Assembly: GCA_964016885.1 (NCBI GenBank)
Contig: OZ024747.1
Coordinates: 68,758,001-68,822,000 of the forward strand
Origin: Eledone cirrhosa
Lineage: Eukaryota
Length of the DNA stretch: 64,000 nucleotides
Direction of reading: 5' to 3'
Positions within the stretch are counted from its first letter, which is position 1. Each line of letters opens with the position of its first letter. Below the pieces are notes generated by a model that saw only the letters and a program-made list of their open reading frames with translations, was not told where the DNA came from and ran no database searches. The translations under genes were made by a program, and so were the position numbers. This document shows, one piece after another, positions 40,771-49,227 of the stretch.

Positions 40771-41064
40771 GGAGAACATGATATGAAGGCTAAAAAACAC
40801 TTGTGGATAGTGCAGTTTTAAATCAACATATATATATATATATATATATATATATATATATATATATGTAGATAAATCTACCAAGAGTTTACGGTAGTGT
40901 CCAATCCGTATGAAGAACTCAATGTAATCCGGATATCATGGAAAGAAGAGATGCAATGAAAAATCACTTTCGGTGAAAGATAAACGGAAAACAGAGTCAA
41001 GATAAAATATTAAAAAAATAATGAATAAAACAATGAAGCAGTTCCTTATATTAAACAAAAAAAG

Positions 41065-41270
41065 TTCATTATTTAACGATCGTTTCTAGGATACATATGT
41101 GTTAGAATTGGCATGCATATTCAACAGATCTATGTACAAAATTATACAAAATTATACAAACTATCAAAATTAAATATGCCCCAGCATGGCCTTAGCCGGA
41201 TGGCTGAAACAGGTAAAAGAGTAAAAGAGTATACCAAACACATAGATATGCCGTCTTCAGAAATAATGAA
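41065..41270 (-). ncRNA. Hammerhead with very long stem II (left arm)
   Basis: reverse complement of 48236-48441. Confidence 0.7.
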
Positions 41271-44200
41271 ATATATTTATTGATAATAACAACAATTCAA
41301 AATTAGAGGTCTGTTTGGGAACAGAGTTCAGATTGACCAATGAAAATACAAAAAGTTTATACAGTTAGGTGTGTGTATATATTCATATAAGTAACTTCGT
41401 TCACAGATATGCATAAAGATATATGTTCACATGCATACGCTTGCCAAAAAGATGTATGTAAATACAAAAATTCAAGGCTAATGTCTCTGTATGTTTATAA
41501 TCTACAGATAAAATACGTACCCACATATATAAATATAAAATAAATATATACACACATTCATATACTCACACATATACGTACATTCACACACAGACGCGGG
41601 TATACGCAAACACATACACACAACCACGAACATACATACACACATACACCCCCACACACATATATATGTGTGTATATACTATTATCATAAGCATATGGAT
41701 ATTAATGCGCGCACATAAACACTGCCACACACATTTAGATCCAGATACAGAAAGTAGGTGGGGGGGGGGGGGAGAGGTCAGTATTCACCGGTGTCAGCAG
41801 ACTGCCTATTTATAAATGTATCTATAAACTTAGAAATAAAAAGAAAAGAAAAAGAAAAAAGAAATATATCAAGAAAATATATATATATATAATATATACA
41901 TACACACACATATATATATATATACACATATATATATATATACATACACACATATATAAACAAGTAAATATAAAATATACATCGATATACATACATATAC
42001 ATATATATATATATATATACATATATACACATACATACACATACATACATATATATACACATATACACAAACACATACATACACATACATATACATACAC
42101 ACACCATATAAATACACATATACATACACACCCGCATACATATAGAGACACATACATATACACATATAAATACTTAGACATATACACATATACACACATA
42201 TATATATATATATACACATATACGCATACATATATATACACGTACATTCACAACACACGTATATATATATATATATATATATATATATACATATATATAT
42301 ATATATATATATATATATATATATATATATATATATATATATATATACACACATATCTACACACATATATAAACACACTCATGTATATACACACATACAC
42401 ATACATACCCACATATAAATATATATATATATATATATATATATATATATACACACACACACATATACACATATATATACACACATATATATATATATAT
42501 ATATATATATATACACACACATATATATATATATATAGACACATACATACACACACATACGCATACATATATATATAAAGATATATATACACACACACAC
42601 ACACACATAATAAATATATATATATATATATATATATATATATATATATATATATATATATATATATATACATATATATACATATACACACACACATATA
42701 TATACACACATACATACACACACATACATACTCATACATAGACATACATATATACTCACACACACATACACACATACATATACGCATATATACACATACA
42801 TACACATCCATGTAAGCGTATATACATACAAACACCACCACACGCTCACACAACTCAGACATACATAAATAAAGGGATATACATACACATATATACATAT
42901 ATAATATATATATATAAATATATAAATAGAGATACATATATATATATATAAAAATATATACACACGTACACACACAAAAACACACATACATACACATACA
43001 TACACACATACATATATATATACACACATACACACACATACATATATATATATATATATATATATATATATATATATATATACACACATATATATATATA
43101 TATATACACACACACATACATGCACATATATATATATATATAAAAAAAAAAGAAATAAGATAAATAAATAAATAAATAAATTAATACACACAGTCAGACA
43201 AATATGCACACACATACATATACATATATATATATATACACACACACATACATATACATATATATATATATATATACATACATACACATATATATATATA
43301 CATACACACACATACACACATCAACTACAAATATATATATATATATATATATATATATATATATATATAATATATATATATATATATATATATATATATA
43401 TATATATGTGTGTATGTGTATATGTGTACGTATGTGCGCATGTATATGTGAGTGTGTGTGTGTATATATATATATATATATATATATATATATATATATA
43501 TATATATATATATATACACACATATATACATATACACATATACATATATATATACATATATATATATACACACAATCATACACTCTTATTTACATGCGCC
43601 CATATGTATTTTTATACTCACATACAAACACCCAAACATACATACCTACCTACATATACATACATACATCAACGCTTACAAATACAAATAATAATAGTAG
43701 GGGGGGGGGATTATAGTAAATATAGGTTTCAAGAAACATAGAATATTAATCTGCATTTAGATCATAATATGTGTTTACATAGTTTCAGTATTAGGAAATG
43801 TAAGAAAGAAGGCAAAATTATGCATTTCAATATAATTATACCATTAACCATAGGTTAACTAAATTAAGGATAGTTAATATATTGATTTCTAAGGTGTATA
43901 CTACTTAGGTTTATAATATTTGAAGCGGAATTTTGAAGTTAAATAGTAGTAGAGTATTAATAATAGTATAACTAAATTAAAATTATTAACGTTATGGTAT
44001 CAATATTAGGAAATGAATTTAGTAATAGGGAAAAAACAAATAAAGTATTACATCGGTAGTAGAATATAAATTATAGGTTAACTAAATTAAAAATTATATA
44101 TTAATTTCTATAGTATATGTTAATTAGGTTTATAATAATTAAAACAGATATTGTATTTTATATATTGTATCTCTATTTATATATGTATATATGTGTATGT

Positions 44201-44618
44201 ATATCCCTTTATTTATGTATGTCTGAGTTGTGTGAGCGTGTGGTGGTGTTTGTATGTATATACGCTTACATGGATGTGTATGTATGTGTATATATGCGTA
44301 TATGTATGTGTGTATGTGTGTGTGAGTATATATGTATGTCTATGTATGAGTATGTATGTGTGTCTATGTATGTGTGTATATATATGTGTGTGTATATGTA
44401 TATATATGTATATATATATGTATATATATATATATATATATATTTATTATGTGTGTGTGTGTGTGTATATATATCTTTATATATATATGTATGCGTATGT
44501 GTGTGTATGTATGTGTCTATATATATATATATATGTGTGTATATATATATATATATATATGTGTATATGTATGTGTCTATATATATATATATATGTGTGT
44601 ATATATATATATATATAT

Positions 44619-46043: not shown

Positions 46044-47024
46044 TATGTCTATATTCACATATATATCGCTATTTCAGAGCATTTATTCCAATTTCTAATT
46101 TCTGCCGGACCGGCAACCGCTCTTTCAAACCAGTTCCTGTACACAGCTAAGTATTCTATAAGTCTCTAGCTGTGTCATTCTCGATAAAAGCACTGGATAT
46201 GTAGTCCTGATGATTTCTAACGAGAATGAAACGCGTAGATTACTTCCCTTGCTTTTATCGAGAATCTAATTGTAATACGTGACGTATTCTATTCTATAGC
46301 GATTAGGTCTTCAAAATGTTTATTATAAACATACAGAATATTTTCGAATATTCTATGTCTATATTCACATATATATCGCTATTTCAGAGCATTTATTCCA
46401 ATTTCTAATTTCTGCCGGACCGGCAACCGCTCTTTCAAACCAGTTCCTGTACACAGCTAAGTATTCTATAAGTCTCTAGCTGTGTCATTCTCGATAAAAG
46501 CACTGGATATGTAGTCCTGATGATTTCTAACGAGAATGAAACGCGTAGATTACTTCCCTTGCTTTTATCGAGAATCTAATTGTAATACGTGACGTATTCT
46601 ATTCTATAGCGATTAGGTCTTCAAAATGTTTATTATAAACATACAGAATATTTTCGAATATTCTATGTCTATATTCACATATATATCGCTATTTCAGAGC
46701 ATTTATTCCAATTTCTAATTTCTGCCGGACCGGCAACCGCTCTTTCAAACCAGTTCCTGTACACAGCTAAGTATTCTATAAGTCTCTAGCTGTGTCATTC
46801 TCGATAAAAGCACTGGATATGTAGTCCTGATGATTTCTAACGAGAATGAAACGCGTAGATTACTTCCCTTGCTTTTATCGAGAATCTAATTGTAATACGT
46901 GACGTATTCTATTCTATAGCGATTAGGTCTTCAAAATGTTTATTATAAACATACAGAATATTTTCGAATATTCCATGTCTATATTCACATATATATCGCT
47001 ATTTCAGAGCATTTATTCCAATTT
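46044..47024 (+). mobile_element. Retrozyme-like 310-bp tandem array, 3.2 copies; HHRs at 46178-46264, 46488-46574, 46798-46884
   Basis: reverse complement of the left array; starts at 46044, 46354, 46664, 46974. Confidence 0.92.
46178..46264 (+). ncRNA. Type-I hammerhead with extended stem I (representative of 8 copies); predicted cleavage after 46237
   Basis: uucucgauaaaagca..gga uau guaguc CUGAUGA u uucu aacg agaa u GAAA cgcg UA gauuac u ucc..ugcuuuuaucgagaa. Confidence 0.92.
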
Positions 47025-48235
47025 ATATATATATATATATATATATATATGTGTGTGTGTATATATATGTGTATATGTGTGTGTGTGTGTATATATATAT
47101 ATATATATATATATATATATATATTTATATGTGGGTATGTATGTGTATGTGTGTATATACATGAGTGTGTTTATATATGTTTGTAGATATGTGTGTATAT
47201 ATATATATATATATATATATATATATATATATATATATATATATATATATATATATATATATATATATATATGTATATATATATATATATATATACGTGT
47301 GTTGTGAATGTACGTGTATATATATGTATGCGTATATGTGTATATATATATATATATGTGTGTATATGTGTATATGTCTATGTATTTATATGTGTATATG
47401 TATGTGTCTCTATATGTATGCGGGTGTGTATGTATATGTGTATTTATATGGTGTGTGTATGTATATGTATGTGTATGTATGTGTTTGTGTATATGTGTAT
47501 ATATATGTATGTATGTGTATGTATGTGTATATATGTATATATATATATATATATGTATATGTATGTATATCGATGTATATTTTATATTTACTTGTTTATA
47601 CATGTGTGTGTATGTATATATTATATATATATATATTTTCTTGATATATTTCTTTTTTCTTTTTCTTTTCTTTTTATTTCTAAGTTTATAGATACATTTA
47701 TAAATAGGCAGTCTGCTGACACCGGTGAATACTGACCTCTCCCCCCCCACCTACTTTCTGTATCTGGATCTAAATGTGTGTGGCAGTGTTTATGTGCGCG
47801 CATTAATATCCATATGCTTATGATAATAGTATATACACACATATATATGTGTGTGGGGGTGTATGTGTGTATGTATGTTCGTGGTTGTGTATGTGTTTGC
47901 GTATACCCGCGTCTGTGTGTGAATGTACGTATATGTGTGAGTATATGAATGTGTGTATATATTTATTTTATATTTATATATGTGGGTACGTATTTTATCT
48001 GTAGATTATAAACATACAGAGACATTAGCCTTGAATTTTTGTATTTACATACATCTTTTTGGCAAGCGTATGCATGTGAACATATATCTTTATGCATATC
48101 TGTGAACGAAGTTACTTATATGAATATATACACACACCTAACTGTATAAACTTTTTGTATTTTCATTGGTCAATTTGAACTCTGTTCCCAAACAGACCTC
48201 TAATTTTGAATTGTTGTTATTATCAATAAATATAT

Positions 48236-48441
48236 TTCATTATTTCTGAAGACGGCATATATATGTGTTTGGTATACTCTTTTACTCTTTTACCTGTTTC
48301 AGCCATCCGGCTGAGGCCATTCTGGGGCATATTTAATTTTGATAGTTTGTATAATTTTGTATAATTTTGTACATAGATCTGTTGAATATGCATGCCAATT
48401 CTAACACATATGTATCCTAGAAACGATCGTTAAATAATGAA
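48236..48441 (+). ncRNA. Hammerhead with 167-nt stem II domain
   Basis: uucauuauuu CUGAAGA [48253-48419] GAAA cgaucg UU aaauaaugaa. Confidence 0.72.
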
Positions 48442-49227
48442 CTTTTTTTGTTTAATATAAGGAACTGCTTCATTGTTTTATTCATTATTTTTTAATATTT
48501 TATATATATATATATATATATCATCATCATCATCATGATTTTACGTCTGCTTTTCCCTGCTTGCAAGGGTATATATATATATGTATATAATATATATTTA
48601 TTAAAATAACAGTTTAAGCAAAGAATCGCTGGTTTCACCCTAACGGGATCTTCATATATATGTATATGTATATATATATATATATATATATATATATATA
48701 TATATATATATATATATATACAGTAAATTAAAAATCGATAGACATATATACATATAAAATAAACACATCAAACAATTACAGGGGATAATTTGTAAAGAGT
48801 GTAAACACACATAGTTACGGAGGTGACATTAAAAATTAACAAGAATCCTGAATATAGATAGCTTGCAATAATGATTAATCTCCTTTGTATATATTCCATT
48901 AAAGAAATATATTTCACCATTAATCGGTGAATCACAGATGTTAAATCTTGGATCATCGGCAAAGGAGAAGATTTAACTATGATTACACACTTAAAGCAAA
49001 CCAGGAAATGACGATGAAATGCACATGTGGTTTTAAAAATACACATCGTCCGCCATCAAGCCAGTGGCTTGAATGGTGTTATCGACCGCTAAAAATAGCA
49101 GCCGAGTCCTTTCAACAGAATAAGTTCTACTAACAGAATATATAGGAGCCGTAAATGCTACCAAAATTAAATTAAAGATGTCCTGTCTGAGAATATCAGA
49201 AACATGTGCCATACCATCTGTAAATTA

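What the first reader, a model, noticed from the sequence alone, without database searches (positions are those of the whole stretch)
41003..48502. Filled and empty target sites of the retrozyme side by side in one inverted duplication
Seen: the right arm (44165-44618 + 47025-48502) mirrors the left arm (41003-42935). The array interrupts the right arm in a (TA)n run whose uninterrupted equivalent is ~42485-42512. Inference: the array is a mobile insertion into (TA)n that postdates the duplication. The host duplication is itself a head-to-head PLE-like 3' end with outward-facing HHRs, so the structure is nested.
Basis: partly seen in the sequence, partly recalled or inferred. Interest (0 to 1): 0.78.

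Follow-up and report, generated by a model that had tools for sequence, protein, structure and literature searches.

The report
Retrozyme inserted as head-to-head double array
A small self-cutting, non-coding RNA element has spread through this animal genome as ready-made pairs of back-to-back repeat arrays whose two ends carry the signature of Penelope-type jumping genes, which gives a testable genomic footprint of how such probably circular RNAs get copied into chromosomes.

Summary
The filled/empty pair is real. A 310-bp hammerhead (HHR) array interrupts a (TA)n run in one arm of an inverted structure, and the other arm keeps the run intact. The host is not a DNA duplication but one head-to-head insertion of a Hydra-like Penelope element (3' UTR only), with a 134-nt tail on the left arm.

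The larger result is the array itself, which is also head-to-head (4.6 + 3.2 units, 1 mismatch). Of 63 insertions fetched, 52 are such double arrays. In all 52, one arm ends at site X (unit 125-139) and the other at site Y (163-172), about 35 nt apart: the Penelope 'tail'. Both arms share one haplotype in 35 of 36 testable loci (17.5% across loci), arms reach about 45 units, and 5' ends avoid no phase and do not pile up at the HHR cut.

Best reading: a Penelope protein primes both ends of a cut (TA)n target on one retrozyme circle and reverse-transcribes round it twice, divergently. Not shown: expression, circularity, cleavage, or which Penelope family does it. Penelope-driven rolling-circle mobilisation was already hypothesised; I found no report of this footprint.

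The parts
40868..44164 (-).
   Evidence: Other genomic copies match window 40868-44164 continuously and carry an ~810-aa RT+GIY-YIG ORF upstream
40868..41002 (-). 134-nt tail, present on the left arm only (long end)
   Evidence: Host copies end at exactly 41002- or 40868-equivalent, one per arm
41065..41270 (-). Host type I HHR, outward-facing: 10-bp stem I, CTGAAGA core, ~167-nt stem II, predicted cut after 41075
   Evidence: motif positions; fold done on the right-arm copy
42485..42512 (.). Empty target site, (AT)14
44165..44617 (+). Host right arm, inner part
44500..44619 (.). 60-bp tandem duplication next to the array, absent from the empty arm; cause unresolved
44618..46043 (-). Retrozyme arm A: 4.60 units of 310 nt, 3' end at site X (unit 130), 5 HHRs (44742-44784 ... 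45982-46024)
46043..46044 (.). Inner 5'-to-5' junction, blunt, unit 255 against unit 117 (asymmetric)
46044..47024 (+). Retrozyme arm B: 3.16 units, 3' end at site Y (unit 167), 3 HHRs (46201-46243, 46511-46553, 46821-46863)
46988..47024 (+). 37-nt X-to-Y tail of the retrozyme, containing a 17-nt motif conserved in related families
47025..48502 (+). Host right arm, outer part; short 3' end against (TA)n
48236..48441 (+). Host type I HHR, outward-facing, predicted cut after 48431
   Evidence: MFE already forms stems I-III (-56.4 kcal/mol; constrained -55.1)

Best explanation
The array is a non-LTR retrozyme inserted in trans by a Penelope-like (PLE) RT-endonuclease. Shown: every unit carries a minimal type I HHR; insertions sit in (TA)n; they are two divergent arrays joined 5'-to-5'; one arm always ends at X and the other at Y, about 35 nt apart; both arms carry one haplotype. 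Inferred: HHR cleavage releases monomers that circularise; a PLE protein (probably a dimer) binds the X-Y region, cuts both strands of a (TA)n run, and uses each 3'-OH as a primer, one at X and one at Y, on the same circle; each cDNA runs round the circle a random number of times; the two free cDNA ends are joined by end-joining with 0-7 nt microhomology. The host formed earlier by the same dual-priming route from a linear Hydra-type PLE RNA, which is why an identical empty site lies next door.
For: 52 of 63 insertions are double, and all 52 pair X with Y (31 XY, 21 YX; two are probably one duplicated event). From coordinates alone, 34 of 34 close divergent end pairs on C1 0-101 Mb are X+Y. 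Flank-independent sample: 9 of 10 double. Ends are sharp: X 28 at 130 and 20 at 139 of 61; Y 36 at 165 and 9 at 167 of 54. Arms share a haplotype in 35 of 36 loci covered twice in both arms, against 17.5% across loci; 14 haplotypes, 10 seen once. 102 of 115 arms exceed one unit, up to ~45; 2 of 115 5' ends lie within 5 nt of the HHR cut (3.7 expected). Within arms: 89 singleton against 12 shared-subset variants, mostly in non-adjacent units. Either arm can be the longer (23 against 29). The host shows the same one-long-one-short rule. In vitro, a PLE cuts and extends both strands of AT-rich DNA from two adjacent internal RT start sites that bound the tail (PMC11167929).
Against: No RNA evidence for expression, cleavage or circles. 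No autonomous PLE sharing the X-Y sequence was found in 60 loci carrying the motif, and the host's own tail is 134 nt and unrelated in sequence, so the driver is unidentified. PMC11167929 saw no difference in start-site use between strands in vitro, so the strict one-X-one-Y rule is not yet explained by it. 11 of 63 insertions are single-armed (one has a 7-nt second arm, one runs into N). One locus (L127) has arms differing at one site, and 4 variants are shared across arms by only some units, so some conversion or template switching occurs. Most loci were found with TA-flank patterns and all come from one contig of one assembly.
Confidence: 0.65

Rival explanations
1. Same PLE-driven dual priming, but on long linear read-through transcripts of existing arrays rather than on a monomer circle.
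For: Explains X/Y ends, TA targets and shared haplotypes equally well if the source array is uniform. In vitro the PLE used uncleaved RNA and HHR activity was not needed (PMC11167929). Minimal HHRs may cleave poorly.
Against: 5' ends are not enriched at the HHR cut (2 of 115). Rare variants are fixed in every unit of both arms (10 of 14 haplotypes seen once), which needs a monomer bottleneck. Arms of 27-45 units need very long uncut RNAs.
Confidence: 0.14
2. Single priming, then fold-back or self-priming makes the second arm as a copy of the first, with the second end set by endonuclease resolution (models in PMC3846280 and PMC8557442 for PLE inverted repeats and tails).
For: Gives head-to-head arms of one haplotype; 28 of 52 inner junctions show 1-7 nt overlap; one variant lies at the same unit index in both arms (L113).
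Against: Inner junctions are not palindromic: 6 of 52 have 5' ends within 10 nt, 3.5 expected by chance. A copy cannot be longer than its template, yet X arms are longer in 23 and Y arms in 29 loci, with no clear length correlation (rho 0.19, P=0.17). Both outer ends abut TA directly.
Confidence: 0.12
3. A short two-armed insertion arrives first; each arm then grows locally by unequal crossing-over or slippage and is homogenised by conversion (satellite model discussed in bioRxiv 10.64898/2026.07.22.740005).
For: Some shared-subset variants and one duplicated inner junction (L092) exist; the older related family is mostly short.
Against: Shared variants are few (12 against 89 singletons) and mostly in non-adjacent units. 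Arrays that are at least 99.9% identical already have 6-14 units per arm. Sub-monomer arms could not seed a 310-nt period.
Confidence: 0.07
4. The inversion is a sequencing or assembly fold-back artefact.
For: Palindromes are a known chimera type (recalled); no reads were examined.
Against: Only the array is inverted, not its flanks; centres are asymmetric; the X/Y rule holds at 52 of 52 loci; the host shows a parallel rule with different ends.
Confidence: 0.02

Closest known systems
Animal non-LTR retrozymes (PMC7229834; bioRxiv 10.64898/2026.07.22.740005)
   Same: 170-400-nt non-coding tandem unit with a type I HHR per unit; self-paired as a circle; PLE mobilisation and multimeric cDNA from circles proposed there.
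   Different: The text I saw describes simple tandem repeats and leaves the mobilisation mechanism open; word searches for invert/orientation/target site/microsatellite found no description of head-to-head double arrays, fixed paired ends or (TA)n targeting (supplement of PMC7229834 unreadable).
EN+ Penelope-like elements: inverted 5'-truncated copy, 30-40-bp tail, microsatellite bias (PMC8557442, PMC3846280, PMC11167929)
   Same: Head-to-head arms, tail on one end only, AT-rich/(TA)n targets, two RT start sites.
   Different: Here the signature is on a protein-free 310-nt unit and both arms are long multimers of one haplotype; the unit has no detectable homology to a PLE apart from a 28-nt HHR match.
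Hydra clade PLEs (PMC8557442 section 11) - for the host
   Same: RWR (RWK-like), DKT, CxCX5C linker, CxxC and CxH, HHR, (TA)n insertion.
   Different: 3' UTR of about 3.9 kb full of TA/CA microsatellite, 134-nt tail and a ~167-nt HHR stem II, against '<3 kb' elements in the paper.
L1 twin priming (recalled, not read)
   Same: Both target ends prime cDNA on one RNA, giving an inverted 5' segment joined head-to-head.
   Different: Both priming sites are fixed and internal, there is no poly(A), the two segments overlap many times over, and inversion is the rule (52 of 63), not the exception.
Non-autonomous Chlamys PLEs such as MRC1 (PMC8557442 passage)
   Same: Non-autonomous PLE passengers with multicopy head-to-tail insertions.
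   Different: [quoted passage not shown]

Membership tests
non-LTR retrozyme | Tandem unit of about 170-400 nt | tested here: met
   310 nt
non-LTR retrozyme | Type I HHR in every unit | tested here: met
   8 of 8 expected sites: 6-bp stem I, CUGAUGA, U-U closed stem II, GAAA, palindromic CGCG stem III; own descriptor, Rfam at gathering threshold gave 0 hits
non-LTR retrozyme | No protein coding | tested here: met
   No stop-to-stop ORF of 100 aa or more lies within the array
non-LTR retrozyme | Highly self-paired monomer | tested here: met
   Circular MFE -67.8 against -48.9 +/- 4.3 for 100 shuffles, z=-4.4
non-LTR retrozyme | Dispersed, multi-locus, mobile | tested here: met
   4225 exact HHR 32-mer matches; empty site in the window
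non-LTR retrozyme | Expressed as linear and circular RNA | tested here: inconclusive
   No RNA data obtained
non-LTR retrozyme | HHR self-cleaves | not testable with these tools
   Needs an in vitro assay
PLE-type insertion (array) | Inverted 5'-truncated copy head-to-head | tested here: met
   52 of 63
PLE-type insertion (array) | 30-40-nt tail on one end only | tested here: met
   Modal X 130, Y 165; 52 of 52 heterologous
PLE-type insertion (array) | AT-rich or microsatellite target | tested here: met
   17 of 19 flank-independent ends; 103 of 114 overall, the latter biased by ascertainment
PLE-type insertion (array) | Terminal sequence shared with an autonomous PLE | tested here: inconclusive
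   No linked PLE ORF in 60 motif-bearing loci; only a 28-nt HHR match to one Hydra-like family
PLE-type insertion (array) | Short target-site duplication | tested here: inconclusive
   (TA)14 empty against (TA)9 + about (TA)13 filled: fits a duplication or slippage
Hydra clade PLE (host) | Single ORF with RT and C-terminal GIY-YIG | tested here: met
   827-aa open frame in L081 with YRDD and YIG; Atlas look-alikes at 0.96-0.99 carry GIY-YIG/RVT_1/HTH_animal; Pfam itself gave 0 hits
Hydra clade PLE (host) | RWK, DKT, CxCX5C, CxxC and CxH motifs | tested here: met
   RWR 54, DKT 132, CNCRNKANC 687, CRLC 785, CNH 813 (features); RWR is a variant of RWK
Hydra clade PLE (host) | HHR and (TA)n insertion | tested here: met
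Hydra clade PLE (host) | Generally short (<3 kb) | tested here: not met
   ORF 2.5 kb plus about 3.9 kb 3' UTR in L081; a typical, not strict, feature
Hydra clade PLE (host) | Phylogenetic placement with reference Hydra RTs | not tested
   No reference set in hand
L1-type twin priming (recalled) | 5' end of one segment lies next to the priming site of the other | tested here: not met
   True in the window (14-nt overlap) but 5' ends are spread round the unit across loci

The most novel reading that the evidence does not exclude
One monomeric retrozyme circle is copied by two polymerases of a PLE complex, one from each end of a cut (TA)n target and each from its own fixed start site, so that one event writes a multi-kilobase palindromic satellite into the genome. 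The arrays would then be a direct record of bidirectional rolling-circle reverse transcription, would settle how animal retrozymes move, and would show that PLE head-to-head arms and tails come from dual priming on a single RNA.
Probability: 0.55. Interest if true: 0.85.

Novelty: new variant of a known kind. Interest (0 to 1): 0.7.

Why it matters
How animal retrozymes move is stated as open in the papers read (PLE partner and rolling-circle cDNA are hypotheses; local satellite expansion is the alternative), and the origin of PLE inverted arms and tails is also unsettled. A young family with more than a thousand insertions, a strict two-end rule and per-locus haplotypes separates these models and names the two priming sites and the conserved motif needed for an in vitro test. 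The filled/empty pair alone is ordinary evidence of mobility.

Tried and rejected
Rfam at gathering threshold: 0 hits. BLAST-type search of the unit in the genome: 0 hits, not even the window's copy, so uninformative. Classic twin-priming signature (14-nt overlap in the window) did not generalise. Host as DNA-level inverted duplication with a unique spacer: rejected, the spacer is element body. Search for the autonomous partner through the tail motif: 60 loci, tblastn hits in 6, none positioned as the ORF following the motif. Pfam found nothing on the host ORF. A>G bias as a sign of RNA editing: 5 against 1 among distinct fixed variants, too few. Other host copies were too diverged in the microsatellite to tell whether the 60-bp duplication predates the array. 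Earlier scan notes: none for this genome or sequence.
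Full report
OBSERVATION. The inverted structure is real. Self-blastn pairs 41002-42513 with 48503-47026. With the array left out, the right arm aligns to the left arm throughout: 8 substitutions against 1424 matches in the outer part, 3 against 356 in the inner part. Both array flanks map to the one (AT)14 run at 42485-42512. The filled arm also has a 60-bp tandem duplication (44500-44619) just left of the array that the empty arm lacks; I could not tell whether it came with the insertion.

THE ARRAY. The unit is 310 nt and carries a minimal type I hammerhead: 6-bp stem I, CUGAUGA, a U-U-closed stem II, GAAA and a palindromic CGCG stem III (own descriptor; Rfam found nothing). 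As a circle it folds at z=-4.4 against 100 shuffles. The array is not one tandem run. Arm A (44618-46043, ribozyme sense on minus, 4.60 units) and arm B (46044-47024, plus, 3.16 units) are joined 5'-to-5', with 1 mismatch in 2407 nt. Numbering from the predicted cut, A ends at 130 and B at 167. The array is younger than its host: at the host arms' per-arm divergence, 1 or fewer mismatches has P=0.005, or P=0.025 using non-microsatellite DNA only.

THE FAMILY. The window lies in a 3.0-Gb animal assembly. An exact 32-mer of the HHR occurs 4225 times. The first 10 loci listed, chosen without regard to flanks, gave 9 head-to-head double arrays; 17 of their 19 outer ends abut at least 8 nt of alternating TA, and the other two (one locus) abut a mixed TA/TG repeat, against 9.7% background. 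Each double array had one end near 130 (X) and one near 165 (Y). I then searched for X and Y ends followed by (TA)6 (647 and 742 forward matches; reverse counts are inflated by overlaps, so about 1,300-1,500 each by doubling). Only the first 100 places are listed. In the span both lists cover (C1 0-101 Mb; 47 X, 48 Y), 34 of 34 close divergent pairs were X with Y; 27 ends were unpaired by pattern. I fetched the paired and unpaired loci. In all, 63 insertions including the window: 52 double, all X+Y (31 XY, 21 YX), and 11 single (9 X, 2 Y). Two doubles in L106 have identical junctions and are probably one event; one 'single' has a 7-nt second arm and one runs into N; I merged segments by hand for L092 and L117/118 and dropped hits under 90% identity. 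Ends are sharp (X: 28 at 130, 20 at 139, range 125-139, n=61; Y: 36 at 165, 9 at 167, range 163-172, n=54). Overall 103 of 114 scored ends abut TA, but that figure is biased by how most loci were found.

WHAT THE ARMS RECORD. 102 of 115 arms exceed one unit (medians 3.4 and 4.8, maximum about 45). 5' ends are spread round the unit (chi-square P=0.10); 2 of 115 lie within 5 nt of the HHR cut, 3.7 expected. In the 36 doubles with both arms covered at least twice, the arms carry the same haplotype in 35, against 17.5% for arms from different loci; there are 14 haplotypes, 10 seen once. Within arms there are 89 singleton and 12 shared-subset variants in 172 kb, the latter mostly in non-adjacent units. 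X arms are longer in 23 loci and Y arms in 29; inner junctions show 1-7 nt overlap in 28, blunt joins in 8, 1-18 nt inserts in 10, and larger overlaps or gaps in 6. Only 6 of 52 are near-symmetric (3.5 expected). Against a clean picture: L127 has arms differing at one site, and 4 variants are shared across arms by only some units.

THE HOST. A 23-mer from its HHR occurs 7259 times, often as divergent pairs. Fifteen selected long loci and 30 short windows show that window 40868-44164 is continuous element body, microsatellite included, and that full copies carry an ~810-aa ORF upstream with RWR, DKT, YRDD, CxCX5C, YIG, CxxC and CxH, matching the Hydra clade description (PMC8557442 section 11). 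Pfam found nothing; Atlas look-alikes carry GIY-YIG/RT families; no phylogeny was made. Copies end at two exact positions 134 nt apart. Reading by eye, 21 resolved pairs besides the window have one long and one short end, 1 has a non-standard second end, 1 is nested and ambiguous, and 3 were not fully fetched. The HHR has a 10-bp stem I and a ~167-nt stem II and faces outward on both arms. So the 'duplication' is one two-armed PLE insertion of 3' UTR only, and the retrozyme later hit a (TA)n run in one arm.

MECHANISM. Shown: target, two-armed architecture, fixed heterologous ends, single haplotype, multimeric arms. From the literature: PLE insertions often have an inverted 5'-truncated copy and a 30-40-bp tail on one end (PMC8557442), and a purified PLE cuts and extends both strands of AT-rich DNA from two adjacent internal start sites that bound the tail (PMC11167929). 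Inferred: a PLE protein primes both ends of the cut target, one at X and one at Y, on one retrozyme circle, runs round it a random number of times from each side, and the cDNA ends are joined (0.65). A linear multimer template (0.14) fits the ends but not the monomer bottleneck or the absence of run-off at HHR cuts. Fold-back (0.12) predicts palindromic centres and a dependent arm no longer than its template. Later local expansion (0.07) predicts adjacent shared variants. An artefact (0.02) cannot give the X/Y rule. The driver is unidentified: a 17-nt motif between X and Y is shared with older related families (24,477 exact matches), but none of 60 motif-bearing loci linked it to a PLE ORF. 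There is no RNA or read-level evidence.

LITERATURE SEEN. PMC11167929: main text to the start of Methods. PMC8557442: passages and section 11. PMC7229834: passages and Discussion; supplement not readable and it may show array orientation. bioRxiv 10.64898/2026.07.22.740005: abstract, introduction, part of methods, passages, Discussion; supplements closed. PMC3846280, PMC11722881, PMC8969392, PMC7761336: passages. L1 twin priming is recalled. Eight searches turned up no description of retrozymes as head-to-head double arrays with paired fixed ends; the library lacks most subscription papers. An unchecked earlier scan note from another genome (e1-7881736) describes a ribozyme-free tandem element with PLE-type ends: a lead that the pattern may be wider, not support.

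VERDICT. Observation confirmed and interpretation supported. The filled/empty pair is ordinary proof of mobility. The family-wide architecture is a new variant of a known kind that makes two open questions testable: how animal retrozymes move, and how PLE inverted arms and tails arise. Interest 0.70.

Noticed in passing
window 24606, 29618, 30221, 32066, 39520, 40762, 50703 (minus); 54983, 55719, 56389 (plus): Ten more type I HHR-like motifs of several families, several inside other inverted repeats (26219-29364, 29869-30602, 32219-33006, 39478-39641; also 1371-1644): probably further head-to-head PLE insertions.
   Followed up: no
window 25087-25722 (+), 33117-33854 (-): GIY-YIG endonuclease remnants with a CX2-5CxxC-like linker, a different PLE type from the host; Pfam GIY-YIG E=2e-4 for the second only. 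Candidate alternative drivers.
   Followed up: partly
window 2929-6331, 8568-11822, 34410-35540: ORF fragments resembling RTE-type LINEs (recalled resemblance).
   Followed up: no
L033 3500-4200; L090 8600-8750; L142-L171: Older related retrozyme-like family with a different HHR but a homologous hairpin, X-Y motif and Y end; 2211 matches of a 25-mer; mostly short copies.
   Followed up: partly
L047 2749-2774, L121, L062: Another Hydra-like PLE family whose HHR core and U-U-closed stem II match the retrozyme's over 28 nt (89-93%); its tail looks about 53 nt. Possible source of the ribozyme.
   Followed up: partly
L117/L118: About 45-unit arm in which a linked pair of variants (unit 81 and 84) recurs in 9 scattered units and another in 5: recurrent RT error, conversion or assembly error.
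   Followed up: no
fixed variants across loci: A>G 5 against T>C 1 in RNA sense among distinct fixed variants (singletons 2 against 12); the unit-276 A>G change recurs on two backgrounds. Weak hint of A-to-I editing of the template.
   Followed up: partly
single-armed insertions: 9 of 11 retain only the X arm, suggesting X is primed first.
   Followed up: no
L088 1393-1678: A second retrozyme insertion into the 3' UTR microsatellite of another copy of the same host PLE family, at a different run.
   Followed up: partly
window 48236-48441: Host HHR has a ~167-nt stem II insertion and U at the cleavage position.
   Followed up: partly
window 61439-61838, 21330-21544, 14888-15158: Minisatellites of 50, 35 and 50-58 bp.
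   Followed up: no
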